Of a stretch of 64,000 nt of DNA, positions 13,199 through 38,991 are shown in pieces (position 1 is the stretch's first letter; each line of letters opens with the position of its first letter). The notes under the pieces are model-generated. The model was not told the origin of the DNA, made no database searches, and was given only the letters and a program-made list of their open reading frames with translations. The position numbers and the translations under genes were made by a program. Source of the stretch: a virus; the IMG/VR virus record IMGVR_UViG_3300045988_147927, positions 128,001-192,000 of that record; one strand, given 5' to 3'.

Positions 13199-14057
13199 AT
13201 GAATAGTAGGGTAGAGGATTTATTAGGTTCTTCTAGTTCTTATACTTCCATGACAGATAAAGAGAGAGAATACTTTATAGCACTTCTTAAAGAGGAGATG
13301 CACAAGAGGGAAGAGTCTGGTAAGTATGAGCAGATACGTGATATTGTAAGAATTGAAGAGTGGATTAATTCTGATTATTACATAGGGACAGACCAAAAAA
13401 GTATATACCCATACTGGAAAGATTTTATAGTAGACATATTCAGAGATACTAGAAAAGATAGTGAAAAGATTAATTCCGTCATATTAAGTGGTTCAATCGG
13501 CGTTGGTAAATCAACTGTTGCTGAGTTAATCATGATGCGTAAGATGTATGAGTTGTCTTGTTTTAAAAATATCAATGCTATGTTTAACTTAATGTCTAAA
13601 ACTAATATAATGTTCCTGTATTTTTCAGTAAGTCAAAAACAAGCTGAGCGTACTGGGTTTGGTGAGTTTAGGTCTTTGGTTGACAGTTCTCCTTATTTTA
13701 ATGAGAACTTTTTACGTAATCAAAGATTGTCATCTTTATTAGTGTTTCCAGAGGGTATTAATTTTGCATATGGTTCTAGTGCTAGTGATAGTATTGGTAT
13801 GTCAGTTATATGTTCAATGCTCGATGAAGCAAACTTTTTGGGTGGTAATGGGCCTTCTAATGATAGTGAGAAAGCAACAGATTTATATGCTAATATAGTT
13901 AATAGGTCTAATTCTAGGTTTATTGTTGATGGTGGTGTCAATCATTCATTAAACATTTTAGTTTCATCAGCAACCTTTGAAAATTCTGCTACTGAGCGTC
14001 AAATTAGGTTATCTAGGAATGACCCACATACGATTGTTGCCGCACCAGCTCAATGGG
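13199..14057 (+). CDS. terL: terminase large subunit, exon 1 (ATPase)
   Basis: Walker A GSIGVGKST, Walker B SMLDEANF, coupling motif VSSAT. The ORF runs into a stop at 14065 inside the insertion. Junction is +/- a few nt. Confidence 0.8.
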
Positions 14058-14560
14058 AAAGATAGCAGTATGTAACTCTACATACTGTATAAAAACCCCT
14101 ATTTCATAAGTGATTATGAGATAGCTTGAATTTAAATACTAGGAAATCCTAAAGCTAGTTAAACTACAGCATAATTGGAAACAGTAAGTGCGAATGTTGC
14201 GAAAGTAGAAAGAATTAACTAGATGGCATATGGTGAAATAAAAGCATGTCTTGTGATAAGATATGTCCTAAGTGCTGTAAATAATGGATGTTTAGTTACC
14301 AACTATTACATTTTGTGTAGTAGAGGTTCAACGACTAGGAGATTGAGTCTCCCTGATTAAATGTCAGATAACCTCTATAGGGTAGAGGGAAAGTAAAGCT
14401 ACAAGCATTTATAATGACAAGACATTATAAAAATGGTAGAAGAAAAATATTCACATCTTTTTGTTAAGATGAACAAATAGTCTACGCTTATGTGAAAGCA
14501 TAAGAGGTCTGCTAGTGATAGTAAGACTGCGTTAGAGGTTGCGTTCTAGCGTGAATAAGA
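14058..14560 (+). ncRNA. group I intron ribozyme core (ORF-less part)
   Basis: Shared blocks with the capsid introns: cctaaag, actaca, gttgcgaaagtagaaa, ggtgaaataaaag, gttcaacgact, atagtct + gtgaaagcat hairpin. Confidence 0.65.
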
Positions 14561-14594
14561 TAAATATGTCTAAATTATAATATTACACGTAAAG

Positions 14595-14622
14595 TTGACA
14601 CTCTTAATGTTTTCTATATAAT
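14595..14622 (+). promoter_or_regulatory. near-consensus sigma70 promoter inside the intron
   Basis: TTGACA - 16 nt - TATAAT, upstream of RBS gaggagg and tnpB. Confidence 0.65.
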
Positions 14623-14734
14623 TTAAGTTGTATAGAGAGGAGGTGTCAGCTTGGAATAAAAATTAAATAGTAACGATAACAAAATATATAGGTCAGTTAA
14701 GATTAGGTTATTACCAACAAAAGAGCAAGAGATT

Positions 14735-15877
14735 TTGTTTTGGAAGAGTGTAGGTGTTGCTAGATGGTCTTATAATTACTTTTTATCAGAGAGTTATAGG
14801 GTATATCAAGAATGGTTAGAAGATAAAAGTAAACCAAAGCATATATCTGAGATGGAGGTTAGAAAGTATATTAATAATCATCTTAAAAAGACTACACATA
14901 CATGGCTTAAAGAGGTTGGAAGTAATGTAATGAAACAGGGTGTCAAAGATGCCAACATAGCATTACAGAATTTCTTTAAATATAACAAAGGTTATCCTAA
15001 GTTTAAATCTAAGAAAAGGTCTAAGCCTAGTTTCTATGTTAATTACGAAAGTTTAAAACGTACACCAAATGGATTTCGTGGTGAGAGAATTGGTTATGTT
15101 AAAACTAAGGAATCACTACCTATGATTGGTAAGAATCAAAAATACCGTAGACCTAGAATTAGTTTTGATGGTAGATTTTGGTACTTATCTGTTAGCTTTG
15201 AGGTTAAGAGGTTAGATGTTAAATTATCAGATACTAAGTTAGGTATAGACTTGGGCATTAAAGAGTTAGCTGTTGTTTCTAGTCAGAGTGGTACTGATAT
15301 TAAGAAGTATCATAATATAAATAAAACTTGTGAAGTAAAGAGATTAGAGAAAAAGCTAAAACGTGAGCAACGTAAGTTTTCACGTAAGATTCTTGTACAT
15401 AAAGGTCTTTGTAATAATAAAACTAATCATAAAAAAGAACTAGAATTATGTAAAAACATTCAAAAACAAAAGAGTATAATTCAGAGATTATATAGACGAT
15501 TGTTAAATATCAGGACTAATTATTTACATCAAACAACTACTGAGATAGTGAAAACCAAACCATCTCATATAGTTTTAGAAGATTTGAATGTTAGTGGAAT
15601 GATGAAAAATCGTCATTTATCAAAGTCTATTATGTGTCAAAAATGGTATGAGTTTAGGAGACAGATAGAGTATAAAGCTGAATTATATGGTATTGAAGTT
15701 GTATTAGCAGATAGATTTTATCCTAGTTCTAAGACTTGTAGTTGTTGTGGTAATGTCAAGAGAGACTTAAAATTATCTGACAGAGTATATAGATGTGATT
15801 GTTGTGGTAATGTTGTTGATAGAGATGTCAATGCATCAATCAATTTAGCTAATTATAATATAGAAAGTGTCAAATAA
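14735..15877 (+). CDS. tnpB: TnpB-like RNA-guided nuclease (IS200/IS605 OrfB family)
   Basis: RuvC residues in GIDLGIKE, VLEDLNV, DRDVNASINL. Zn ribbon CSCCGN...CDCCGN. Homology to the second TnpB extends upstream to about 14660 (SVKIRLLPTKEQ), but the RBS-proximal TTG at 14651 is followed by an in-frame TAA. Confidence 0.85.
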   Translation: MFWKSVGVARWSYNYFLSESYRVYQEWLEDKSKPKHISEMEVRKYINNHLKKTTHTWLKEVGSNVMKQGVKDANIALQNFFKYNKGYPKFKSKKRSKPSFYVNYESLKRTPNGFRGERIGYVKTKESLPMIGKNQKYRRPRISFDGRFWYLSVSFEVKRLDVKLSDTKLGIDLGIKELAVVSSQSGTDIKKYHNINKTCEVKRLEKKLKREQRKFSRKILVHKGLCNNKTNHKKELELCKNIQKQKSIIQRLYRRLLNIRTNYLHQTTTEIVKTKPSHIVLEDLNVSGMMKNRHLSKSIMCQKWYEFRRQIEYKAELYGIEVVLADRFYPSSKTCSCCGNVKRDLKLSDRVYRCDCCGNVVDRDVNASINLANYNIESVK

Positions 15878-16063
15878 AAGATACTCTATATATGTACCTA
15901 TCGTTACTAGGGAATTTAAGCCTTTGGGGTGTTATAACAAACAAGAGTAGTTGAAGTTATTTTAACAACGAAATTGAACGTAATGATTAAGGAAGATATA
16001 TCGTGAGGTATATCAAAGTGTAAGTGTGTGATATTTATAATATGTACATATTTATCGTAACGG
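15878..16063 (+). ncRNA. candidate omega-RNA scaffold / intron 3' segment
   Basis: Position immediately 3' of tnpB up to the exon-2 boundary; local hairpins (gatata..tatatc, gttg..caac). Inference from TnpB biology. Confidence 0.4.
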
Positions 16064-17277
16064 ACGTCAAGCCAAACAATTTTAGTAAAAAGTTCTTCTA
16101 TGTATTTAAAGGTTCTAATTACTTAGAGGCTAATATCGTTAATTCTACAGATGATGTAAATAACTTTAGGGTTTCTGAGGGATTAGGGAAGCAGAAGTAT
16201 ATTGATGGATTAGAAGATTATAAATCTATTAATAAGGCTATTGAAGAATTACCTCCACATATGCAGACTAAGTTTTTAAGAGTTCCTGTAGATTTGAGGG
16301 CTGGTTTTGAGACTAACTTATTGAGGTCTTTACAAGATATTGGTGGTGTATCTACAGGCTCACAAGGTAAGCTATTTAGTTCTCCTATGGTATTACAAGA
16401 TTGTGTTGATGAGAATAGGCATCACCCATTCGTTTCTAAAGAGATAATAATTTCTACTGGTGATGATATTCAAGTTAAGGATTATTTAAGAGATGATTTT
16501 AGGTTAAAGTATCCTGAGAGACCTAGATATTTACATATTGACCAATCATTTAGGACAGATAGTACTGGTATATCTAGTGTGTATGTTGATGATATTATAG
16601 AAGAAGATGGTGTTAAGAAGCCTGTTTTTGGTGTTGATTTTATGCTACGTATCAATCCACCTAAATCACCTAAGAAGATAGCTATATATAAGATACGTAA
16701 TTTTGTCATTTATCTTGCTAATACAGTTGGTATGAGGATAGGTAAGTTGACATATGATATATTCAATTCTGAGGAATCAAGACAGATTCTTGAAGAGATG
16801 GGGTTTAATGTTGGTTATTTGTCAGTAGATAGAACTGATAGACCTTACCTTGATTTAGTAGAGATTATGTATGAGAAGAGGATTAAGTTATATGACTATC
16901 CTATTTTGAGGTATGAGTTACTTAATCTTTTACATGATAGGGTTAAAAGGAAAGTAGACCACCCTAAAGTAGTTACAGATGCAGGGTTTGTTGATTATGA
17001 TGGTAAAGGTAATGATGGTGTTACAGGGACTAGGGTAGGTTCTAAGGATGTTGCCGATAGTTTATGTGGTGCTATTCAAAATGCTTTGCAGAGTACTGTT
17101 TCTGATGCAGAGGGGAATAAGGGAACTTTTAATGATTTTCTTATTGCAAATCGTATAGGTTCTTATGTTGGTATAGATACACCTAATGATGTTTCTGTAG
17201 AAGAGTTAATTGATAGACAGATTGATGATATGATAGAAGATATTGAAGTATATGGTATCAATAATTTTAGATATTAA
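16064..17277 (+). CDS. terL: terminase large subunit, exon 2 (nuclease half)
   Basis: Continues exon 1 in frame (...AQW|DVKPNNF...). 859 + 1214 nt = 2073 nt, i.e. 691 codons including the stop. Confidence 0.8.
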
Positions 17278-17291
17278 GAAGAGGTTATTAT

Positions 17292-19016
17292 ATGGCATGG
17301 TATGATTTATTTATTGGTAAGAGGGGGAATATTACCAATAATAGTAGTCAGAGTGATACAATAGAGGATTTAAATACAATAAAAGAGAATACAACTGGTG
17401 ATATCATACGAGAGGTTAAGATTGTTGAGGATGGTAGAGTAGGTTCTTTTTTTGATGGGAACATAGAATCAATACACTCAAAACAAAATATTAATGAGGG
17501 TAAGGTAAATTTATCACCAAGTAATTTACAACAGTTGATAGGTAATGATGATACAAATGCTTTGGGGCAAGTTATCGATGGTATTCGTGGTGATTATAGT
17601 TTAAGTGATATATTTTTAGAGAATGAAGAAATGTCTAAGGATTCTGTTATAGGTGCAGCTATGGAGATTCTAGCAGATGATTCTTGTACAGTTGATGAAA
17701 CAACTCATTTTGCTATTATGGTAGATTCTACTGATGAGGGGTTAAAGAAATTTATAGAAGATTTTTTGAGAAATAATATCAATATAGAAGATAGGCTTTG
17801 GTCTTGGGCGTATGAGATTGTTAAGCATGGTGATTTTAAACTTAGGAGAAGAGAGTATTATGCTGGTTCTGAAAAGAGTGGTATAAAGTCTGTTTATTAT
17901 GAAGATGTAATAAATCCCTACCTTGTTTCTAGGATTGAGTATATGGGGAACGTATTAGGATATGAGGATGAGGATTATGCCTTTGAGAGTGGTTCATATC
18001 AAGATGCTGGTCAGTTTGGTACTGTTGGTAGTGGTATAAGTGGTAGTGCTAGGTTCGAGAAGAGTGATGAATTTGTTCATTTTATATCATCTAAACTATC
18101 TAAGAGGGAAAAAATTAAGTTAAATGTTAAGAAGGCTGATAACACACGAGAAGAGGTTACTTGTTATCGTGTAGTAGGTACTTCTATAGTAGACAGTGCT
18201 AGGACTATGTTTAGGATTAATGCTTTAATTGATAATATTCTTGTTTTATCACGTATTGCAAGGTCTACACAATTTAACCTTGTAAAGGTTGAGGTTGGTA
18301 ATGCTGGTGCAGGACAAACACAACAAATGTTATCAGATGTTAGAAGGAGATTTCAAGCTAATACTAAGATGCAAAAAGGTGTAGGGTTTAGGTCTGACCC
18401 ATCTCCAATTCCTATAAATAGTAATATTTATCTTCCTACAAGAGATGGTAAGGGTGATGTTACAGTAGAGAGTATTGGTGATGGTGTAGACGTGCAGTCT
18501 ATTGTTGATGTTGATTACTTTACTGATAAACTTTTTGCTAGTTTAAAAGTTCCTAAACAGTATTTAGGTTTTGCAGAATCATTAGGTTCTATGGGTAATA
18601 ATTCCCTTGTTAAACAGGATTTAAGGTATGCTCGTTCTGTTTCTAGGGTTCAACAAATCTTGATTAATGGTATTACAGATTTAGTTGAGAATTACTTAAA
18701 ATATAGGGGTAGAGGTTCTGATGTTGGTGCTTTTAGTATTAGGATGAGACCATTACCTACAAGTGAGACATCAACAAAAGTTGAAGAGTTTGTTTCAAAT
18801 CTACAAATGATTGATTCAAGTAGTGCTTTTTTAGAATCTTATGCTGATTATATTGACAAGGCTAAGTGGTTGAAGTCGATGTTAAATCTTATAAATGTAG
18901 ACCCTAGTGATGTAGCTACAGATAAGTTTAAAGAGATAATCAAGTCTATTGAAGATGGTTCGTATAATGAAGAAGATTTTGCTAGTAGTGAGCCTGAAGA
19001 TAGTGAAATGTATTAG
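17292..19016 (+). CDS. portal protein
   Basis: Position directly after terL, 574 aa, portal-like segment DVDYFTDKLFASLKVPKQYLGF, acidic C-terminus. Confidence 0.65.
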   Translation: MAWYDLFIGKRGNITNNSSQSDTIEDLNTIKENTTGDIIREVKIVEDGRVGSFFDGNIESIHSKQNINEGKVNLSPSNLQQLIGNDDTNALGQVIDGIRGDYSLSDIFLENEEMSKDSVIGAAMEILADDSCTVDETTHFAIMVDSTDEGLKKFIEDFLRNNINIEDRLWSWAYEIVKHGDFKLRRREYYAGSEKSGIKSVYYEDVINPYLVSRIEYMGNVLGYEDEDYAFESGSYQDAGQFGTVGSGISGSARFEKSDEFVHFISSKLSKREKIKLNVKKADNTREEVTCYRVVGTSIVDSARTMFRINALIDNILVLSRIARSTQFNLVKVEVGNAGAGQTQQMLSDVRRRFQANTKMQKGVGFRSDPSPIPINSNIYLPTRDGKGDVTVESIGDGVDVQSIVDVDYFTDKLFASLKVPKQYLGFAESLGSMGNNSLVKQDLRYARSVSRVQQILINGITDLVENYLKYRGRGSDVGAFSIRMRPLPTSETSTKVEEFVSNLQMIDSSSAFLESYADYIDKAKWLKSMLNLINVDPSDVATDKFKEIIKSIEDGSYNEEDFASSEPEDSEMY

Positions 19017-29867: not shown

Positions 29868-31481
29868 ATGGCTAAAAAACAATTAAAAAAGAGAATATTT
29901 GTACCTACAGGTAATGATTTAGGTAATTTTAATGTTTTTGATTTGCAGCCTGTAGAGTTGACATTTGTAGATTCAGATGAAGGAAATAAAGAGAGCAATT
30001 CTAAAGGTGCTGGTGGTGGTTCTTCTGTACCTGACCCTGTAGATAATAATCCGTTAAGTAAAAGTTCTAGTAAAGACTCTAGTGGTGATGGCTCAAAAGA
30101 TAATAATCCATATAGTAATGGATATGATGAAGATAATAACGGTGATGAGTTTGATAAATCTGAGAGAGATTTAAACAATGATTTATATGGCGATGATTTA
30201 GACAAGGATGAGGCTGAAAAATCTCAGCAAAATAATCAAGATGGTGATGGAGAGGGTTCATCTGGTGGTGAGAGTGGCTCTTCCAGTGCAGGTGGTATGG
30301 GTAGTAATGGTGAGAATGACTTCTCACCACCTAATTATGACAGTAGCATGGCAAATGGTGAGGGTGATGATTCATCAGAAAATAAGTCAGAGATGGAAAG
30401 TGCCTTAGATAATGAGGAAGAGAATAAGTCAGATATATCAAAAGAGAGGTCTAATGAGGTAGATAATCAAAACTCTCAAAACTCTCAAAACTCTCAAAAC
30501 TCTCAAAACTCTCAAAACTCTCAAAACTCACAGAATGGGGATAATTCTCAAAATGGAGATAACTCACAAAATGGTGAAAACTCTCAAAATGGAGATAGCT
30601 CACAAAATGGTGATAGTTCTCAAAATAAGCTAACTGATAGTGATGAATTTCAGAAGGCACATGAGACTAAGAACAATGATTTTGATGATACTAAAGGTAA
30701 AGAGATTGCTGATAAGATGGTAAGAGATGCCGCTAAAAAAGTTCAAGAGGAATTAGATAAGGATGAGACATTAGCAAATACTAATAGTGATTCTTTAGAT
30801 AATTATAAAGACTTCGGTGCTGGTGCTATGACTACTCTATTTAAGAGTACAGGTATGGTAGCTGATTGGAAAGTCAAATTAAATAAATTATTTAGGATGG
30901 CTTTAGGTCAGAGGGTGTTTATGAATCCTGATATGATTAATAAGCGTATTGAAGATGCACCTCCAGGGAGAGAAGATATTGAGTCAACAATGATTAAAGT
31001 TGGTATATTACTAGACTGTTCATCATCTATGGGTGGTTCTGCTTTCAAAAAGGTTATCACGCAGATGGATGCTATGATACGTGCTGATAAGGGTATGAAA
31101 AAAGTACAGTTTTATATTATGCCATTTTCAGAATGGTCTGTAGAAGAGAGCATTAAACTTATGAAGAGGTGTAAAGGTACACAATTAAAGCAGACTTTAT
31201 TGACTTTTGGGCCAAAAGGTTCTACTTATATAACAAATGCTGTTGAGGCATTGATGAGGAAGATTAAGAATCCTGATACTGTTATTGTTATGTCAGACTG
31301 TGAAATATGGGATGATGATGCTTTTGCTAGAAATTCATATTGTAAAAAGTTGGTTACTAAATTCAGAAAACGCTTAATATGGGTTATGCCTAGTAAGAGT
31401 GGCCTAGGTTATATGGCTAAATTCGATAAATTCGCTAAAAAAGAAGATAGGTATTTAGTCTTTAAAGGTGACGGGGATTAA
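29868..31481 (+). CDS. VWA-domain protein with long acidic low-complexity N-terminal half (CobT-like architecture)
   Basis: MIDAS GILLDCSSSMGG; later VIVMSDCE; preceding D/E/S/N/G-rich region. Confidence 0.7.
   Translation: MAKKQLKKRIFVPTGNDLGNFNVFDLQPVELTFVDSDEGNKESNSKGAGGGSSVPDPVDNNPLSKSSSKDSSGDGSKDNNPYSNGYDEDNNGDEFDKSERDLNNDLYGDDLDKDEAEKSQQNNQDGDGEGSSGGESGSSSAGGMGSNGENDFSPPNYDSSMANGEGDDSSENKSEMESALDNEEENKSDISKERSNEVDNQNSQNSQNSQNSQNSQNSQNSQNGDNSQNGDNSQNGENSQNGDSSQNGDSSQNKLTDSDEFQKAHETKNNDFDDTKGKEIADKMVRDAAKKVQEELDKDETLANTNSDSLDNYKDFGAGAMTTLFKSTGMVADWKVKLNKLFRMALGQRVFMNPDMINKRIEDAPPGREDIESTMIKVGILLDCSSSMGGSAFKKVITQMDAMIRADKGMKKVQFYIMPFSEWSVEESIKLMKRCKGTQLKQTLLTFGPKGSTYITNAVEALMRKIKNPDTVIVMSDCEIWDDDAFARNSYCKKLVTKFRKRLIWVMPSKSGLGYMAKFDKFAKKEDRYLVFKGDGD
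30468..30624 (+). repeat. in-frame tandem repeats (9-nt x6, then 18-nt x5)
   Basis: caaaactct x6 encoding NSQ repeats, then caaaatgg(a/t)ga(t/a)a(a/g)(c/t)tc(a/t)-type units encoding NGDNSQ variants. Confidence 0.9.
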
Positions 31482-31810: not shown

Positions 31811-32908
31811 TTGAATAAAAGTTTTAAAGTTAGGATTTATCCTACAAAAGAGCAATGTGTTCTTTTAGAAAAGACCTTTGGTGCAAACAGGTTTGTTTAT
31901 AATTACTTTCTCAACTTAAAAAGTAAGTTGTATGAGTTTTATAAAATAAATCTTAGTTACAACAATTCTTCTAAAGTGCTAACAGAATTAAAGAAAACTA
32001 AAACTTGGCTTAAAGAGGTTGATAGTAAATCTTTAATTCAAACACTTAGGGATTTAGATAGAGCATATCAAAACTTTTTTAGTGGTAGAGGTAAATACCC
32101 TAATTTTAAAAAGAAACAAGATAAAAACTCTTATCGTACTAATCAAAGCATTAAATTAGTCAATTCTTTTATTTCTATTCCAAAGGTAGGTCTACTTAGA
32201 TATAAAGATAAGTGTAAATTTGATGATAAACATATTCTTAAAATTTATAATGTAACAATATCTAAGACATCTAGTGGAAAATATTATGCTAGTATATCAG
32301 CTGAGGTCTATATACCTAATTTTGAGAAAACCAATCAAAGTTGTGGTATAGACTTAGGTTTAAAAGATTTTGCAATTTTAGATACTGGTGAAAAGATAAA
32401 GAATCCTAGAATATTAAAGCATCTTGAAGTTAAGTATAGAAAATTAGCTAAAGCTGTTTCAAGAAAAGTTAAAGGTTCAGCTAATTATCAAAAAGCTAAG
32501 TTAAAGTTAGCAAGGTTTCATGAGAAAGTTACGAATATTCGTAAAGATTTTCTTCATAAATTATCTACTAACTTAGTAAAAACTTATGATATTATTTGTG
32601 TTGAGACTCTTAAAGTTAAAAATATGATGAAAAATCATACATTAGCAAAATCATTTCAAGATGTAGCACATTCTGAGTTTATAAGACAGTTAGAATATAA
32701 AGCTAAGTGGTATGGTAAAACTATCTCTAAAATAGATAGATTTTATCCATCAAGTCAGGTATGTTCTAATTGTGGATATAAAAACAAAGATGTTAAAAAT
32801 CTTAGTATTCGTGAGTGGATTTGTCCAGAGTGTGGGGTTCATCATGATAGAGATATCAATGCATCAATTAATATTTTGAATGAGGGATTACGACTTATAG
32901 AAGTGTAA
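31811..32908 (+). CDS. tnpB: TnpB-like RNA-guided nuclease (IS200/IS605 OrfB family)
   Basis: TTG start after aaagaggtgag. [11 protein letters not shown]-terminus. RuvC residues in [25 protein letters not shown]. Zn ribbon CSNCGY...CPECGV. Confidence 0.85.
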
Positions 32909-33033: not shown

Positions 33034-34860
33034 ATGTCAGAGGGGATAGATATTTATATTATGGGTAATTTAGAGAAACAATACTTATCAGATACGAGTG
33101 TTTTTGATAGGTCGCTGTATGAGAGTTATGAGCCTGATACAAAATTTGATGGTTCAAATAATGCAGTGTTGCGTATTATCCGAGGACCATTAGCAGAGTG
33201 GGATAAGTTAAATCGTAATGGTAGGTTATATTCTGAGAAGTTGTGGGATAGGGTGTTAGAAACACCGTATGTTAAAGAACAGCTCATGTATAATACACTT
33301 TTTGGTGAGGCTAATCACCCAGTAGATAGAATGGAAGTAGATTTTGAGAGGGTTTCTCATAGAATTGCTAAGATGTGGAAAGTGCCACAATCAAATCAAA
33401 TTTATGGTGAGATTCATATCTTGGATACTCCTTTTGGTCGGATTATCAATACATTGTATGAAGCTGGTGGTGTTATTGGATATTCATCAAGGGCTGGTGG
33501 TGCTTTACATCAACGTAAGGATTATATTGAAGTAGATGAAAATCAATATAATTTTGTTACATTTGATGCTGTTCCATTCCCGTCTGTACAATCTGCTAGA
33601 CCTAGTGATTTTGTAACAGAGGGTGCTGAAATTCAAAAACACGCTTTAACAAAAGATGTTCATAATGCTCTTTTTAAGATTATTAAAGAGTGTGATGAAA
33701 AAGACTTTAATAATATTAAGTCTTTTATAAATAGCATTGAGGGTTATGATTTAACACCTGAAAAGTTATTACTTGAAAGTGTTGAAAATATAACTTTTAA
33801 TAATGGTGATGAAGAAGTTATTGTCCGAGACACTATTGAGGACAATAAGGAAGAATCGCTTGTAGATACTTTACAAAGTACTTTACAGTCAGTTAAGGCT
33901 CAAAAACAATCTTTAGAGAAAGAGAATAGAGGTTTAAAAGATAGCTTAAATAATGCTTTAAATAAAATCTCAACTGTTCTACAGGATGCTAAAGATAAAG
34001 AGGTTGCAACACAAGATGAGATTTCAAATCTAAAAGACACTATTGCAAGAAAAGAAGTTAAAATCAATGAGTTGCAAGAAGAGATTGATATGTTACAAGA
34101 TGAGCTTGATGGTTTACAAACTGTCGAGGAGGCTTGTAAGGCTTTGAAGTATCAAAACTCTACTTTACTTAAAGAGGGTGTAGAGGATAACAATAGGGAA
34201 TTAGAATCGAAGTTATCTGTTAAAGAGGAAGAAAACAAATCTTTGTTGAAAGATAATAAAAATCTTTCAAAAGAAAAAGAAGAGTTACATTCTGAATTAA
34301 AAGAGGCTTATGGTGAGATTGCTGATACTGTTAAAGATATTAATAGTAAGGATGCTATTATTAAGGCACAACAAGATACTATTAATTCTTTAAAGAGTGA
34401 TGTTAAGTCTACACAAGAAGAATTAGATAAGGTAGATGAAGATTATCAAAGTGCTTTAGATAGACGTGATAATCAAATTGAGCAGTATGAGGAAAGAATT
34501 AAAGAGTTAGAAGATAAGATTAGGGAATTGAGTTCAGAGGTAGAAGATATCGATGAGTCATATTCAAAATCAAAATCATACACTAAATCTTTAAAAAATG
34601 ACTTAATTTCAGTTATTGCTGGTAATTATGGTTTAACAAATGAAAGTGTTAAAGCTAAGTTACCTGTAGGGTTTGGTAAGTCAGAAATTTATACTGTGTG
34701 TGAATCGATGAGTCGCAATAGTAGTAAAAATTTAATAAGCAATTCTATTGTAGATACTCAAATTGTTAATGAATCAACTAAAAACAGGGTTACTGATATT
34801 CATTCTAACAATAGGGGTAGTAGATTAAGTGAAATAATCTCTACAAATAGAAGAGGTTAG
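33034..34860 (+). CDS. prohead protease (T4 gp21/U9-like) fused to a coiled-coil scaffolding region
   Basis: LNRNGRLYSEKLW and LFGEANHP resemble gp21 motifs. About 300 aa of heptad-rich E/K/L sequence follows. Start is ambiguous (33034 or 33061). Confidence 0.6.
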   Translation: MSEGIDIYIMGNLEKQYLSDTSVFDRSLYESYEPDTKFDGSNNAVLRIIRGPLAEWDKLNRNGRLYSEKLWDRVLETPYVKEQLMYNTLFGEANHPVDRMEVDFERVSHRIAKMWKVPQSNQIYGEIHILDTPFGRIINTLYEAGGVIGYSSRAGGALHQRKDYIEVDENQYNFVTFDAVPFPSVQSARPSDFVTEGAEIQKHALTKDVHNALFKIIKECDEKDFNNIKSFINSIEGYDLTPEKLLLESVENITFNNGDEEVIVRDTIEDNKEESLVDTLQSTLQSVKAQKQSLEKENRGLKDSLNNALNKISTVLQDAKDKEVATQDEISNLKDTIARKEVKINELQEEIDMLQDELDGLQTVEEACKALKYQNSTLLKEGVEDNNRELESKLSVKEEENKSLLKDNKNLSKEKEELHSELKEAYGEIADTVKDINSKDAIIKAQQDTINSLKSDVKSTQEELDKVDEDYQSALDRRDNQIEQYEERIKELEDKIRELSSEVEDIDESYSKSKSYTKSLKNDLISVIAGNYGLTNESVKAKLPVGFGKSEIYTVCESMSRNSSKNLISNSIVDTQIVNESTKNRVTDIHSNNRGSRLSEIISTNRRG

Positions 34861-35724: not shown

Positions 35725-36921
35725 AAAACTTGTGCATAATAGTTTTCATTTATGCAATGTCGCCTTATCATAGAAATATGGTGAGTGATAACTCTACGAA
35801 TTGCTGGAAGTTCCTAAAGTATAACACACTACAACGTAACTCGAAAGGGTAAGCGTGAAAGTTGCGAAAGCAGAAAAAAGTTGTTATAATACCCTATGAT
35901 GAAATAAAAGGTATTTTAGTATTATACTAAAATATTTCTAAGGGGGATAATAAGAATGGATAATCAGCAGTCAGTGGTTACATATATTGAATGTCCTTAT
36001 TGTGGTAAGAAATTAAAATTTTTAAATGCAACTCATCTTAAACGTCATGGCAAAACAGTTAGTGATGTTAAATCAGAGTTTCCAAATCAATCTTTAGCCT
36101 CTCAGTCTTATAGAGATAGGCAGAGAGAAGATACAAGAGATAGGTGGGAAGAGGAAGGTTATAGAGATAGAGTTTCTGCTACATTAAAAATTACACAAAA
36201 TAGGGAAGATATAAAAGAGAAAATAGCTAATGGGAATAGAGTTAAATGGTCTAATGAAGATTATAAAAGGAGGGTATCTAAGAAGATAAGAGATACTCAA
36301 AATAGACCAGATAAGAAATTACATATGTCTAAGTTATCTTCAATGGCTTTAACAGATGGAACTATAGGTGATATATGGAAGCATGTTACTTATGGTGATA
36401 AAGTGTTGTGTTTGAGGAGTTCATTAGAGTTAAAGACTTTTAATTACTTAGTTGAATTAAATATTCCTTTTGAGTATGAAAGTATTAGATATGAGTATAA
36501 GATTGATGGTTTTAGTTTATTTCATGTAATTGATTTTTATTTATCTCAATATAATTTAATTATAGAGGTTAAACCTAAGTATAAATTTAAAGAAGGGTTT
36601 ATTAAAAATCACAATGAAGAGTATCGAAAAATCATCGCAAAACGTGATGGTGGTATTGCTCTCGGGTATAACTATATTTTCATAACAGAGGATAATTTAG
36701 ACAGTAAAGACTCTTTTTATAAAGCTATTAGTAAGTATATGTAGTCAAAGATTCAACGACTAACCCAGACATGGGTGTAGGTTATTATGAAAGATAGCCG
36801 AAGTGTAGAGTACCTAAGTTACAATAGGTAATATGGTAAAGATATAGTCTGTTCTCATGTGAAAGCATGAGTTTTGAATTGTTAAACTTTCATTAAATAC
36901 AATTCAATTTGATACAATTAG
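35725..36921 (+). mobile_element. group I intron 1 with endonuclease ORF
   Basis: Blocks aattgctggaag, cctaaag, actacaacgtaa, gggtaagcgtgaaagttgcgaaagcagaaaa, gatgaaataaaag, then ORF, then attcaacgacta, gatatagtct + gtgaaagcatgag hairpin. Ends in G. Confidence 0.75.
35956..36744 (+). CDS. intron-encoded PD-(D/E)XK-type homing endonuclease with N-terminal Zn-finger
   Basis: RBS aggggga. CPYCGKKLKFLNATHLKRHG. C-terminal core ...VIDFYL...LIIEVKPK. Confidence 0.6.
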   Translation: MDNQQSVVTYIECPYCGKKLKFLNATHLKRHGKTVSDVKSEFPNQSLASQSYRDRQREDTRDRWEEEGYRDRVSATLKITQNREDIKEKIANGNRVKWSNEDYKRRVSKKIRDTQNRPDKKLHMSKLSSMALTDGTIGDIWKHVTYGDKVLCLRSSLELKTFNYLVELNIPFEYESIRYEYKIDGFSLFHVIDFYLSQYNLIIEVKPKYKFKEGFIKNHNEEYRKIIAKRDGGIALGYNYIFITEDNLDSKDSFYKAISKYM

Positions 36922-37019: not shown

Positions 37020-38202
37020 TAACGTAGATAATGCTATTATGTTGTTAGTAGCTTAAATAATACATAGTCTCCGTACATAGTGATATGTGCGAAAAATAAT
37101 CTATTTAATTGCTGGAAAGTCCTAAAGCTAACTAAACTACAACGTAATCATGAAATATGGGTAAGCGTGAGAGTTGCTAAAGCAGAAAAAATTAGTTAGA
37201 TGACATAAGGTGAAATAAAAGCTATAATATGATATAATTATAGTCCTAAGTGTTGTAATAATGGATAATCAGCCGCTAAGTCCTTAATAGGGAAAAGTTC
37301 AACGACTATCCGAAAGCAACAAAAGTTGTGAGTAGATAATGAGAATTATCAAAAGGAGTACGGCTCTAGTGAGTGGGTGAGAATCCCTTAAATGGAAATG
37401 GTAGATGTGTACAAAGGATGGTTTAAAATTACATATAGAATGTCCTATATGTCATAAGAAGTATAAGATGATATCAAATAATCATCTTGTTAAAAAACAT
37501 AATATTACATTAGAAGAGTTTAGAGATATCTATAAAGGTTATCCTACAGAGAGTGAGTATTTACAAAAGGTTAGAGTGGATGTTGGATTAGCAATAGGCT
37601 CTAAAGAGAGTGTTAAGTCTTTTAGAAGTGCTAAAGCTAAGAGACAGCATGAGAGTGGAAATCTCAATCCGTCTAAAACACTTAATTATTTGTGGGAAAA
37701 TAAAAAAAGATTGGATGCGTGAAAGACAGCATATAGGTAATAGTACTGAAGCTGAGTTTAAACGTAAATCAGAAGTTTCTAGACGTTTATGGTCTTGTCC
37801 TGAGTGGGTTAATTCTCGTAGGGATAGGAATGTGAGATGTGAATTAAATGGTTATGTTTTATATGTTAGAAGTTCTTATGAAAAGGTAGCTTGCCAGTTC
37901 TTAGATTCTTTGGGTGTTAAATTTGAGTATGAAACAAAAGTATTCAAATATTACTATGATGGAAGATTTAGAAATTATATTGTTGATTTATATCTTCCTT
38001 TACATGATGTTTATTTAGAGGTAAAACCTAAAGACCTAGAATCAGATGATAAAAATAAAGCTAAAATACAGTCTGTAATTGATAGTGGTAATATAATTAC
38101 TTATGTTGATGAGGATTGGATATGTTCTATAGATGATTTTAAACATCATTTGAGTAAGTACATAAAGATATAGTCTGCTCTATGGTGAAAGTCATAGAAG
38201 GG
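37020..38202 (+). mobile_element. group I intron 2 with frameshifted endonuclease ORF
   Basis: Same conserved blocks as intron 1, but the ORF sits after the gttcaacgacta block. Ends ...agaagG. Confidence 0.7.
37405..38173 (+). pseudogene. PD-(D/E)XK-type homing endonuclease, split by a frameshift in an A7 run
   Basis: ORFs 37405-37722 and 37610-38173 together parallel the intron-1 enzyme (CPICHKKYKMISNNHLVKKH ... VDLYL...YLEVKPK). The frames switch at aaaaaaa, 37702-37708. Confidence 0.6.
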
Positions 38203-38596
38203 TATAATGGAAACGATTATACTCGTAACAAAAGGTATGCAAGACCTTTTAAAAATTGCTGGTAGCCAATCTACTTGGAATAAACTTCCTGAGTATAAAG
38301 GTCAAGACGTTAAAACACATGAAGCTACATTGTTTAATGCTATCAATGATGCGTCCAATACAATTCTTGGTAACACTAAACGCTATGAAGCTACATTTAT
38401 TATCTGTGGTAAAAATGCCGCTACATACATTGAATCCTTGAACACAAATATCGGTCAAGTACGTGAAATCTTCAAACGTGTGTCTACAAATGGTATCGTT
38501 GGTGGTCCACACTTGGTAGGTATCTTGGATGAAAAATATAAAGTATATAAAAATCCATACTACCCTGATAATGAAATCTTGGTAGGTGCTAAGGGT
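38203..38596 (+). CDS. major capsid protein, exon 3
   Basis: Corresponds to track ORF 38207-38617. The exon end gggT pairs with gccc in intron 3. Confidence 0.65.
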
Positions 38597-38991
38597 GAAC
38601 ATATTAATGTTGCTTAATGATAAACATTTTGCCCTTGTAAAACCCTGTGAATTGCTGGGACGTGCTAAAGACTGTTATACCAAAGTGTAAAAATTAACAG
38701 TATGAGTTGTGGGTTAGCACTCCACAACGATGAAATGTACAATCAGCAGCCTTATATATTTAAAGATAGAATATATGGGGTTCATCGACTATCGAAAACA
38801 GAGATGTAAAGTAAGACTGGTAACTCGGTCAAGGTTATTATAGGTTACATCTTTTAAGTGAGTAGAGTAGGAATTAAAGTTCCGAAGTGCAGGGAGTTAT
38901 TACTGATAACCTAAAGGTAATAACTATGATATAGTCAGTGCTAACAAGAAATATGTTAGTTATTTAATTTAATAGTCAGTTAAAATGTTAG
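38597..38991 (+). ncRNA. group I intron 3 (ORF-less)
   Basis: aattgctggga, gctaaag, gttcatcgacta, gatatagtca blocks. Ends in G before gaaatgttc. Confidence 0.65.

What the first reader, a model, noticed from the sequence alone, without database searches (positions are those of the whole stretch)
14058..16063. Terminase large-subunit gene split by an IStron-like chimera (group I ribozyme + tnpB)
The ATPase half (13199-14057) and nuclease half (16064-17277) of terL are separated by about 2 kb. The first ~500 nt of the insert carry the same conserved ribozyme blocks as the three capsid-gene introns: cctaaag, gttgcgaaag.agaaa, g.tgaaataaaag, gttcaacgact, atagtct plus the gtgaaagcat hairpin. A near-consensus TTGACA-16-TATAAT promoter follows, then a TnpB with an intact RuvC D/E/D triad and Zn ribbon, then 186 nt of structured RNA ending at the exon-2 boundary. 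Intron core 5', IS605-type ORF 3' is the IStron layout described in Clostridia. Finding it in an essential phage packaging gene suggests RNA-guided intron homing. If the omega-RNA guide is the sequence just 3' of the right end (ACGTCAAGCCAAACAATTT...), TnpB would cut intron-less terL alleles of co-infecting relatives. Two junction solutions keep the frame. 14057|16064 gives AQW|DVKP, supported by CCC(C) at the IGS position aligned with the other introns. 14054|16058 gives AQ-L-TDVKP, with a U at -1 and a terminal G. I cannot choose between them by eye.
Basis: partly seen in the sequence, partly recalled or inferred. Interest (0 to 1): 0.92.

Follow-up and report, generated by a model that had tools for sequence, protein, structure and literature searches.

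The report
IS607-type IStron splitting phage terminase gene
The 2-kb insert in this phage's large-terminase gene is a known kind of selfish element, an IS607-type "IStron" (self-splicing intron, TnpB nuclease gene and guide RNA), closely related to one already studied in Clostridium botulinum; this copy's nuclease gene carries an early stop codon.

Summary
terL (690 aa once joined) is interrupted by 2006 nt at 14058-16063. Intron-less relatives read ...AAPAQWDVKP... straight through, so junction 14057|16064 is right and AQ-L-TDVKP is wrong.

The insert is a group B / IS607-family IStron, homologous along its length to the tested CboIStron:
- It follows a TGGG motif and ends ...CGG.
- It has a complete group I core (P1-P9.2). 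33 of 60 tested pairs show compensatory changes across 21 family members.
- A long AU-rich stem brackets the ORF.
- A perfect TTGACA-16-TATAAT promoter lies inside it.
- Its TnpB is 64% identical to CboTnpB.
- It has a RAGATH-18 guide-RNA scaffold with a covarying pseudoknot.
- tnpA is absent.

- The element is IS607-type, not IS605-type.
- tnpB has a nonsense codon at codon 3 (TTG GAA TAA). All 18 other copies of this tnpA-less subfamily with that region readable have a sense codon there.
- None of 41 sampled intron-less terL alleles in IMG/VR matches this copy's guide.

RNA-guided homing is therefore a known mechanism for this class and doubtful for this copy. The subfamily occupies at least 10 TGGG sites in related ~200-kb phages. 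This is a new member of a known kind, of moderate interest.

The parts
13199..14057 (+). terL exon 1 (ATPase half; Walker A GVGKS, Walker B LDEAN). It ends in phase 1 after ...CAA TGG G.
14054..14057 (+). TGGG. This is the IS607 target/TAM and the 5' exon strand of P1. It is fixed by the Trp codon plus the G of Asp/Glu.
   Evidence: All 21 aligned family copies follow TGGG. CboIStron TAM is TGGG.
14058..16063 (+). The whole IStron, 2006 nt (boundary ambiguous within GGA).
14066..14087 (+). P1 extension hairpin (9 bp).
14096..14100 (+). CCCCU, the internal guide sequence that pairs with the exon GGG (P1).
14105..14552 (+). Group I (IA2-like) ribozyme core. P2 14105-18; P3 14127-31/14449-53; P4 14138-41/14293-96; P5 14147-49/14286-88; P5a/b 14155-14276; P6/6a 14298-14327; P7 14333-37/14478-82; P7.1-7.3 14338-14439; P8 14454-71; P9 14487-504; P9.1 14506-28; P9.2 14529-52.
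   Evidence: 97.9% paired; 33/60 pairs compensatory; homology to CboIStron
14556..14580 (+). 5' arm of the long AU-rich IR stem that brings the 3' end back to the core.
   Evidence: I2, 84% complementary to 16035-16059
14595..14622 (+). Internal sigma-70-type promoter TTGACA-16-TATAAT (12/12), conserved in the family.
14639..14659 (+). GGAGGTG ribosome-binding site (14639-45), family start codon TTG (14651-53), and the TAA nonsense codon at codon 3 (14657-59; GAA in all other copies).
   Evidence: aligns with the tnpA start ATGGAAT of CboIStron
14660..15877 (+). tnpB open frame after the stop (405 codons plus stop). RuvC D at nt 15248, LEDLN at 15575, DRD at 15818, CxxC at 15737 and 15794. The first canonical start after the stop is TTG 14735, inside the HTH/WED N-terminus.
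15878..16063 (+). 3' non-coding tail, the guide-RNA (omega/reRNA) scaffold. By analogy with Cbo it starts about 35 nt inside tnpB. PK-1 15901-07; RAGATH-18 15921-94; 3' IR arm 16035-59; PK-2 and 3' splice site GUAACGG 16057-63.
16064..16083 (+). Predicted 20-nt guide, which is also the first 20 nt of exon 2: ACGTCAAGCCAAACAATTTT.
   Evidence: Architecture. Allele comparison.
16064..17277 (+). terL exon 2 (nuclease half).

Best explanation
The insert is a non-autonomous, tnpA-less IS607-family (group B) IStron sitting in the essential terL gene of a large phage. Three things are inferred about how it works.

1. Splicing. When terL is transcribed, the 5' ~500 nt fold into an IA2-type group I ribozyme. 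Exon GGG pairs with the intron C-run to form P1. A long AU-rich stem (14556-80 / 16035-59) loops out the ORF and brings the ...AACGG 3' end to the core. Self-splicing then joins 14057 to 16064 and restores ...AQW-DVKP..., so the insertion is phenotypically silent.

2. Guide RNA. An internal consensus promoter (14595-14622) can separately make a tnpB plus scaffold transcript that runs into exon 2. In an intact copy, TnpB would bind the RAGATH-18-type scaffold and use the first ~20 nt of exon 2 as guide. It would cut TGGG-flanked empty sites, and repair from the occupied allele would copy the element in (homing). Scaffold folding (PK-1 pairing with PK-2) and 3' splice-site use compete, as shown for CboIStron.

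3. State of this copy. tnpB has a nonsense codon at codon 3. This element is therefore most likely now a passively inherited self-splicing passenger, or at best expresses very little N-terminally altered TnpB.

Shown here: boundaries, homology, RNA covariation, domain content, the nonsense codon, and occupancy of several sites in relatives. Inferred: splicing, guide use and loss of nuclease expression.
For: Boundaries and restored ORF.

Homology to the tested CboIStron (L004) along the intron core, the promoter/RBS and the right end: ATGTACATATTTATCGTAACGG|ACG in the window against ATGTATATATTTTTCGTATCGG|TTG in Cbo. TnpB is 64% identical to CboTnpB.

Target motif: TGGG precedes all 21 aligned copies, and the window subfamily occupies at least 10 distinct sites.

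Group I fold: 60 hand-assigned pairs are 97.9% paired, 33 show compensatory changes, and sliding the partners gives only 34-51% paired. P3 covaries as UGAAU/AUUCA, CGGUG/UACCG, CAACG/UGUUG and CCACG/UGUGG.

Other RNA features: IR stem; RAGATH-18 above gathering score here and in CboIStron, Fnu1, L025 and L026; pseudoknot covariation CGUUAC/GUAACG, CGAUAC/GUAUCG, CGAUGC/GCAUCG, CGCUAU/AUAGCG.

Indirect evidence for splicing: the same terL site is occupied in L025/L037, whose exons are about 15% diverged at the nucleotide level. Both exons are under strong purifying selection (dN/dS 0.09 and 0.08) in a frame that is continuous only after precise removal.

Other points: nonsense codon unique to this copy among the 19 subfamily copies with that region; long-term purifying selection on tnpB (dN/dS 0.16-0.21).
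Against: - Rfam's Intron_gpI model gives no hit on the insert even at E<=10. The same model also misses the experimentally self-splicing CboIStron, so this negative says little.
- No RNA data are available, so splicing is inferred.
- The first intron base is A, not the U seen at +1 in most group B IStrons, and the P1 register is ambiguous.
- The TAA could be a sequencing or assembly error, or could be bypassed by re-initiation, in which case TnpB could still be made.
Confidence: 0.88

Rival explanations
1. Active RNA-guided homing drive. This copy makes TnpB and a guide RNA, and during co-infection it cuts intron-less terL alleles of relatives, converting or excluding them.
For: - The RuvC and Zn motifs, the scaffold, the pseudoknot and the promoter are all intact.
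- The mechanism has been demonstrated for CboIStron.
- Near-identical relatives are polymorphic. The window has terL occupied and portal empty. L001 has terL empty and portal occupied, and L026 also carries the portal copy.
- tnpB synonymous divergence between the window and L025 (pS 0.33) is lower than that of the flanking terL exons (pS 0.50-0.55). This suggests lateral spread into the same site.
- Occupied and empty alleles of close relatives differ only inside the guide region.
Against: - TAA at codon 3 of tnpB. The next canonical start removes 28 residues of the N-terminal HTH/WED segment.
- None of the 41 IMG/VR IStron-less terL alleles (nor L001/L002) matches the guide. The best have mismatches at positions 5 and 11.
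- Only 2 of 43 IMG/VR contigs with this junction carry the terL IStron.
Confidence: 0.2
2. The element reached terL, and the other sites, by serine-recombinase (TnpA_S) transposition supplied in trans by a full-length IS607 IStron in the host or a co-resident element. TnpB homing was not the route.
For: - Every insertion is at TGGG/GG, the TnpA_S target.
- Full tnpA+tnpB relatives exist in viral and bacterial contigs.
- Many different sites are used, which homing alone cannot create.
Against: - No tnpA was found in the window. The only other IS-like gene is a distant solo tnpB.
- No tnpA-bearing copy was seen within the window subfamily.
- The same site is occupied in diverged terL alleles by a younger-looking element, which fits homing.
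- The two routes are not mutually exclusive.
Confidence: 0.3
3. Dead insertion: terL is simply disrupted, the contig is a defective phage or prophage remnant, and nothing is spliced.
For: There is no RNA evidence. Rfam's group I model is silent. tnpB already carries a nonsense codon.
Against: - Every ribozyme helix is intact in this copy.
- The boundaries restore the frame exactly.
- Both exons are under strong purifying selection in two lineages that carry the insert.
- The surrounding structural genes are intact.
Confidence: 0.04
4. Naturally split terminase: the ATPase and nuclease halves are made as two proteins, and the insert is just an intergenic IS.
For: ORF 16024-17277 has a GTG start upstream of exon 2.
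Against: - All homologs are single polypeptides across this point, with Q-W invariant.
- 41 viral contigs have the continuous junction.
- Exon 1 ends in phase 1, with no conserved stop or start arrangement. The 13 residues upstream of exon 2 are scaffold sequence.
Confidence: 0.02

Closest known systems
CboIStron (IS607-family IStron of Clostridium botulinum BKT015925 plasmid p1BKT015925; Zedaveinyte et al., bioRxiv 10.1101/2023.11.20.567912)
   Same: - TGGG target/TAM, and a 5' exon that ends in G.
- Homologous IA2 group I core: 78.5% identity over the P8-P9.2/IR segment (window 14432-14580), with matching P3-P9 helices.
- Internal promoter and RBS.
- TnpB 64% identical.
- RAGATH-18-type scaffold with the PK-1/PK-2 pseudoknot.
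- Right end ...TCGTA(A/T)CGG, with the guide being the 3' flank.
- It also sits in a phage-like replicon and splits a protein gene.
   Different: - No tnpA. Only its RBS and start codon remain, now serving tnpB.
- A different P1-P2 and a P7.1/7.2 expansion.
- The first intron base is A, not U.
- tnpB has a nonsense codon at codon 3.
- The host gene is terL of a ~200-kb phage.
Group B IStrons with ORF A deleted, e.g. CbISt4 of phages c-st and D-1873 (2053 nt) and BcISt1 (Tourasse et al. 2014, PMC4227781)
   Same: - Deleted ORF A plus ORF B layout, size about 2 kb.
- GG-ending target, CGG 3' end, splice after G instead of U.
- Long AU-rich IR stem, plus a direct repeat complementary to the 3' IR.
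   Different: - It belongs to a separate sublineage (TnpB 82-86% identical within it, at most 65% to any bacterial-genome copy found). That sublineage was seen only in viral and metagenomic contigs.
- The intron 5' half is mosaic.
IS607 TnpB with RAGATH-18-derived reRNA (ISFba1; Ren et al. 2024, PMC11061315)
   Same: A ~390-aa TnpB followed by a RAGATH-18 scaffold, a G-rich 5' TAM, and a 20-nt guide immediately 3' of the scaffold.
   Different: Those elements were studied without introns, with TAMs AGGAG or GAGGG. Here the TAM is TGGG and the scaffold doubles as the intron 3' end.
IS605-family (group A) IStrons, CdISt1 / FnISt1
   Same: The same overall idea: group I intron at the 5' end, OrfB/TnpB at the 3' end.
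   Different: Group A elements insert after TTGAT-like motifs, end in TCAG, splice after U, have a short balanced stem and carry Y1 tnpA remnants. None of these is found here.
Homing-endonuclease group I introns and inteins in phage structural and packaging genes
   Same: A selfish element in a conserved site of an essential phage gene. Relatives of this phage carry inteins in the same terL, and introns are present in the capsid gene.
   Different: The nuclease is RNA-guided (TnpB) rather than a protein-only LAGLIDADG or GIY-YIG enzyme. The element can also use any TGGG site.

Membership tests
IS607-family (group B) IStron | Group I intron ribozyme at the 5' end of the element | tested here: met
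   P1-P9.2 were assigned. 97.9% of cells are paired and 33/60 pairs are compensatory across 21 copies. Homologous to the CboIStron intron.
IS607-family (group B) IStron | Inserted after a GG-ending site (TGGG/AGGG/GAGG); 5' exon ends in G | tested here: met
   CAATGGG|AAAG in the window. TGGG precedes all 21 aligned copies.
IS607-family (group B) IStron | 3' terminus ends in CGG and there is no target-site duplication | tested here: met
   ...TCGTAACGG|ACGTC. The empty allele is CAATGGGACGT.
IS607-family (group B) IStron | Long AU-rich inverted-repeat stem enclosing the ORF region, plus a 3' direct repeat complementary to the 3' IR | tested here: met
   14556-80 / 16035-59 (25 nt, 84% complementary), and 15882-901 / 16040-59.
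IS607-family (group B) IStron | ORF B = TnpB with RuvC D/E/D and a Zn finger | tested here: inconclusive
   Domains and motifs are present and identity to CboTnpB is 64%. However, codon 3 is TAA in this copy.
IS607-family (group B) IStron | ORF A = serine recombinase TnpA_S (autonomous copies) | tested here: not met
   No tnpA is present, and only the RBS plus start codon align with the Cbo tnpA start. Copies lacking ORF A are common in this family, so this marks the copy as non-autonomous. It does not exclude membership.
IS607-family (group B) IStron | Guide-RNA scaffold (RAGATH-18 type) ending ...CGG, with the guide being the 3' flank | tested here: met
   RF03064 scores 55.7 bits against a gathering score of 44.9, at 15921-15994. 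The same family hits CboIStron. The pseudoknot covaries.
IS607-family (group B) IStron | Self-splicing that restores the host transcript | not testable with these tools
   Only indirect evidence: the frame is restored exactly, and both exons are under purifying selection in two lineages that carry the insert.
IS605-family (group A) IStron (CdISt1-like) | Insertion after TTGAT/ATTAT/TTTAT, 3' end TCAG, splice after U | tested here: not met
   The target is TGGG, the end is CGG, and the splice follows G.
Rfam RF00028 Intron_gpI | Match to the curated covariance model at gathering score | tested here: not met
   No hit at E<=10. The model also misses CboIStron, Fnu1 and L025, and scores the related L026 intron at 43.5, below its threshold of 50. 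This is a sensitivity limit of the model.
Phage terminase large subunit | N-terminal ASCE ATPase plus C-terminal RNase H-like nuclease, encoded next to portal | tested here: met
   Foldseek top hits are the HK97, D6E and Sf6 TerL and the G20c nuclease. tblastn hits annotated TerL. Portal is the next gene. Pfam, PHROGs and PDB sequence searches are weak or negative.

The most novel reading that the evidence does not exclude
In this lineage of ~200-kb phages, IStron-borne TnpB and guide RNA act between co-infecting phages as a gene drive or weapon aimed at essential structural genes (terL, portal and others), and they leave a population footprint.

The footprint would be this. In two independent sites, the occupied and empty alleles of otherwise identical relatives differ only inside the 20-nt guide region. 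In terL the differences are at +5 and +11 within ~500 nt. In portal the difference is at +5 within 655 nt. No sampled empty allele matches an occupied allele's guide.

This could be co-conversion of the stretch between the TAM and the cut site, or survival of seed-mismatch escape alleles.
Probability: 0.2. Interest if true: 0.75.

Novelty: new member of a known kind. Interest (0 to 1): 0.4.

Why it matters
It shows that the IS607 IStron design (ribozyme, TnpB and guide RNA in one transcript) has a phage-borne sublineage. That sublineage has colonised several essential packaging and structural genes of large phages, next to inteins and ordinary group I introns.

These phages are a natural system for asking two questions. 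Do RNA-guided nucleases mediate competition or gene drive between co-infecting viruses? How do target alleles escape?

For annotation, it explains a "broken" terL. It also warns that Rfam's group I model misses this whole intron clade, including the experimentally validated member.

Tried and rejected
- **Rfam, gathering and E<=10 scans.** Only RAGATH-18 was found in the insert, with no Intron_gpI hit. I rejected this as evidence against a ribozyme after the same model missed CboIStron.
- **TerL by sequence profiles.** Pfam and PHROGs on the halves and on the joined protein gave only weak P-loop hits. PDB sequence and profile searches found nothing. The question was settled by structure prediction plus Foldseek, and by tblastn.
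- **RNAalifold and single-sequence MFE.** These recovered the hairpins but not the long-range P3, P4, P5 and P7 pairs, so I assigned the core by hand.
- **MAFFT column offsets.** The two intron subtypes are offset by one column in P2, P3 and P8, and differ in P6a and P7. I left those helices out of the formal count and checked them by eye.
- **A full covariance model.** Not built, because the intron exceeds the 400-column and time limits.
- **Junction 14054|16058.** Rejected because it replaces the invariant Trp.
- **Alternative starts for tnpB.** There is no in-frame ATG, GTG or TTG between the TAA and 14735. Initiation at ATA or ATT cannot be excluded.
- **Literature.** Searches found no report of an IStron in a phage terminase gene.
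- **A closer isolate.** None exists in the phage collection. Only the Fusobacterium phage Fnu1/FNU2/FNU3 IStrons match, at about 80% identity over the intron.
Full report
**1. What is there**

The window is a ~31% GC phage region.
- ORF 13199-14065 has a Walker A/B ATPase, and its frame continues at 16064-17277.
- Joining 14057 to 16064 gives a 690-aa protein.
- A search of 5.8 billion proteins found relatives 98% identical (P0001, 1117 aa, carrying an intein after GVGKS). It also found 686-691-aa uninterrupted homologs. All read ...AAPAQW(D/E)VKP... across the junction, and Q-W is invariant in 16 homologs.
- The DNA of an intron-less relative (L001/L002) reads CAATGGG|ACGTGAAGCC.

The insert is therefore 14058-16063 (2006 nt), with a GGA ambiguity. 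Only 14057|16064 and 14056|16063 leave a terminal G, and both give the same mRNA.

The host gene is terL:
- An AlphaFold model of P0070 (pLDDT 70.8) has the HK97, D6E and Sf6 large terminases and the G20c nuclease domain as its top PDB matches.
- Exon 2 hits annotated terminases by tblastn.
- Portal is the next gene.
- Sequence-profile searches alone were weak.

**2. What the insert is**

Pfam finds HTH_OrfB_IS605, OrfB_IS605 and Cas12f1-like_TNB in the 14660-15874 frame. Rfam finds RAGATH-18 at 15921-15994, above its gathering score. RAGATH-18 is the scaffold of the guide RNAs of IS607-type TnpB nucleases (PMC11061315).

BLAST of the 5' 600 nt gave three kinds of hit:
- an unannotated region upstream of a "transposase" in Fusobacterium phages Fnu1, FNU2 and FNU3;
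- many group I introns of Staphylococcus, Enterococcus and Lactococcus phages (5' half of the query);
- C. botulinum plasmid p1BKT015925 and phage c-st (3' part of the query).

The p1BKT015925 locus is the CboIStron, whose transposition, TnpB cleavage and self-splicing have been reconstituted. Alignment shows homology along the whole element:
- the intron core blocks;
- the promoter and RBS;
- TnpB (64% identical);
- the right end, ATGTACATATTTATCGTAACGG|ACG here against ATGTATATATTTTTCGTATCGG|TTG in Cbo.

The exon end is TGGG, exactly the TAM and target of CboTnpB and TnpA_S. It is also the GG-ending target / CGG end that defines group B IStrons, which splice after G rather than U (PMC4227781). 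The element is thus IS607-type, not the IS605/CdISt1 type.

tnpA is absent. The GGAGGTG-N5-TTG GAA that now heads tnpB aligns with the Cbo tnpA start.

**3. Is the 5' part really a group I ribozyme?**

Rfam's Intron_gpI does not hit it, even at E<=10. It does give sub-threshold hits on the capsid-gene introns. The same model also misses CboIStron, Fnu1 and L025, and scores L026 at 43.5, below its threshold of 50. The negative therefore reflects model sensitivity.

I collected 33 viral and 32 bacterial-genome loci using a conserved P7'-P9 pattern. I aligned 21 distinct introns and assigned P1-P9.2 by hand. For the 60 pairs whose columns are in register:
- 97.9% of cells are paired;
- 33 pairs show changes on both sides;
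- sliding the partners by 1-3 columns drops pairing to 34-51%;
- no shuffle reached the observed covariation.

P3 also covaries (UGAAU/AUUCA, CGGUG/UACCG, CAACG/UGUUG, CCACG/UGUGG), although MAFFT offsets it by one column. Every helix is intact in the window copy.

A 25-nt AU-rich stem (14556-80 / 16035-59) brackets the ORF, as described for group B IStrons.

The intron is mosaic. Its 5' half is 77% identical to a capsid-gene intron of the same window (37103-37266) and resembles other phage introns. Its P8-P9.2/IR segment (window 14432-14580) and the IS part are Cbo-like.

**4. The guide-RNA end**

PK-1 (15901-07, UCGUUAC) pairs with the last seven nucleotides (16057-63, GUAACGG). This pairing covaries across the family: CGUUAC/GUAACG, CGAUAC/GUAUCG, CGAUGC/GCAUCG, CGCUAU/AUAGCG. 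It matches the PK-1/PK-2 pseudoknot whose 3' strand overlaps the 3' splice site in CboIStron.

The predicted guide is 16064-16083. The promoter TTGACA-16-TATAAT is a 12/12 match and is conserved in the family.

**5. State of tnpB**

In the 18 other copies of this tnpA-less subfamily where that region is readable, the ORF starts TTG-(GAA/GTA/AAA)-GAA-AAA-TTA... The window reads TTG GAA TAA. The next canonical in-frame start, TTG 14735, lies 28 codons in, inside the HTH/WED segment. The rest of the ORF is open, with the catalytic and Zn motifs present. Cbo D189 corresponds to D200 here. dN/dS against seven other copies is 0.16-0.21. This points to a recent knockout, or an assembly error, rather than long decay.

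**6. Mobility and population context**

The window subfamily (TnpB 82-86% identical) appears only in viral and metagenomic contigs. It occupies at least 10 different TGGG sites.

| Site (window coordinates) | Occupied in | Empty in |
|---|---|---|
| terL, 14057\|16064 | window, L025, L037, L131 | L001 and 41 IMG/VR contigs (L026 among them) |
| portal, 17808\|17809 | L001, L026, L125, L154 | window |
| vWA gene, about 31030 | L021, L024, L034 | window |

The terL site:
- In IMG/VR, 41 contigs have the empty terL junction and 2 have the IStron.
- L025 carries both a mini-intein and the IStron.
- Between the window and L025, both terL exons have dN/dS of about 0.09 at pS of about 0.5, in a frame that is continuous only after precise excision. 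This is indirect evidence for splicing.
- tnpB pS between the window and L025 (0.33) is lower than that of the flanking exons. The intron is 93% identical against 85% for the exons. This hints at lateral spread into the same site.

**7. Does the guide have targets?**

None of the IStron-less terL alleles matches the window's guide. The closest (L001, L002, L081, L086) differ at positions 5 and 11, and every difference is at a third codon position. The L026 portal guide differs from the window's empty portal site at position 5.

Two comparisons stand out:
- Window against L001: +5 and +11 are the only differences in about 500 nt around the terL junction.
- L026 against the window: +5 is the only difference in 655 nt around the portal junction.

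This is post hoc and rests on two sites. It could be co-conversion, escape, selection for splicing, or chance. I record it as unexplained.

**8. Verdict**

This is a bona fide IS607-type IStron, a new phage-borne member of a known and experimentally characterised class. Splicing is very likely, but it is inferred. RNA-guided homing is the known behaviour of the class, and it is doubtful for this particular copy. Interest is moderate. The population pattern is the part most worth following up.

Noticed in passing
window 31811-32908 (+): A second, distant tnpB (36% identical to the IStron TnpB; HTH_OrfB_IS605, OrfB_IS605 and TNB domains). It sits in the intergenic gap between a vWA-domain gene (29868-31481) and the head maturation protease (33034-34860). 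It has ~330 nt upstream and ~125 nt downstream non-coding sequence, no Rfam hit and no intron similarity.
   Followed up: partly
window 16068 and 16074; window 17813: Occupied and empty alleles of near-identical relatives differ only inside the guide region. In terL the differences are at +5 and +11 in ~500 nt (window against L001). In portal the difference is at +5 in 655 nt (L026 against the window). In both cases the IStron-bearing allele is the odd one out against 4-5 closest empty alleles.
   Followed up: partly
window 17805-17828 (portal gene); loci L001, L026, L125, L154: Very close relatives carry a sister IStron (Cbo-like P1-P2) in the portal gene, at the site that is empty in the window (TGGG|CGTATGAG...). 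In L001, terL has an intein and no IStron.
   Followed up: yes
terL homologs P0001-P0069; locus L025: Most close relatives have inteins in the terL P-loop region: a LAGLIDADG intein after GVGKS, or a mini-intein after SG. The window's terL has none. L025 has both a mini-intein and the IStron.
   Followed up: partly
window 36669-36871, 37104-37317, 38088-38197, 38560-38957; also 35828-35910: Sub-threshold Rfam group I intron hits (22-33 bits) in the capsid-gene region. 37103-37266 is 77% identical to the IStron's P3-P5 region, and a further similar piece lies at 35828-35910.
   Followed up: partly
window about 31030 (vWA gene 29868-31481); loci L021, L024, L034: Relatives carry an IStron of the same family at a TGGG site that maps here. 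The window's site is empty.
   Followed up: no
window 14660-14691 against 15886-15917 and 16041-16061: The first 30 nt of the tnpB coding region are complementary (78%) to the PK-1 region just after the tnpB stop, and more weakly to the right end. These may be alternative pairings that link tnpB translation, scaffold folding and 3' splice-site exposure.
   Followed up: no
loci L051, L062, L064, L066, L067 (bacterial genome contigs): ORF-less mini-IStrons, with the right end only 160-550 nt after P9. Full tnpA+tnpB copies of the same intron family occur in Clostridia, Enterococcus, Erysipelotrichaceae, Cetobacterium and Fusobacterium genomes.
   Followed up: partly
L003 (Fusobacterium phage Fnu1, MK554696, 32.5-34.5 kb): The deposited annotation shows only a "transposase" between a DUF1983 tail-protein CDS and a hypothetical CDS. 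It is in fact a homologous IStron (TGGG target, RAGATH-18 scaffold...TTGTATCGG end) that probably splits one gene.
   Followed up: partly
window 14058: The first intron base is A, not the U reported at +1 for group B IStrons. Among family copies +1 is U, A or C. The base 5' of the CCC guide run does not track it, so the shifted U-G pair proposed for group B P1 is not conserved here.
   Followed up: partly
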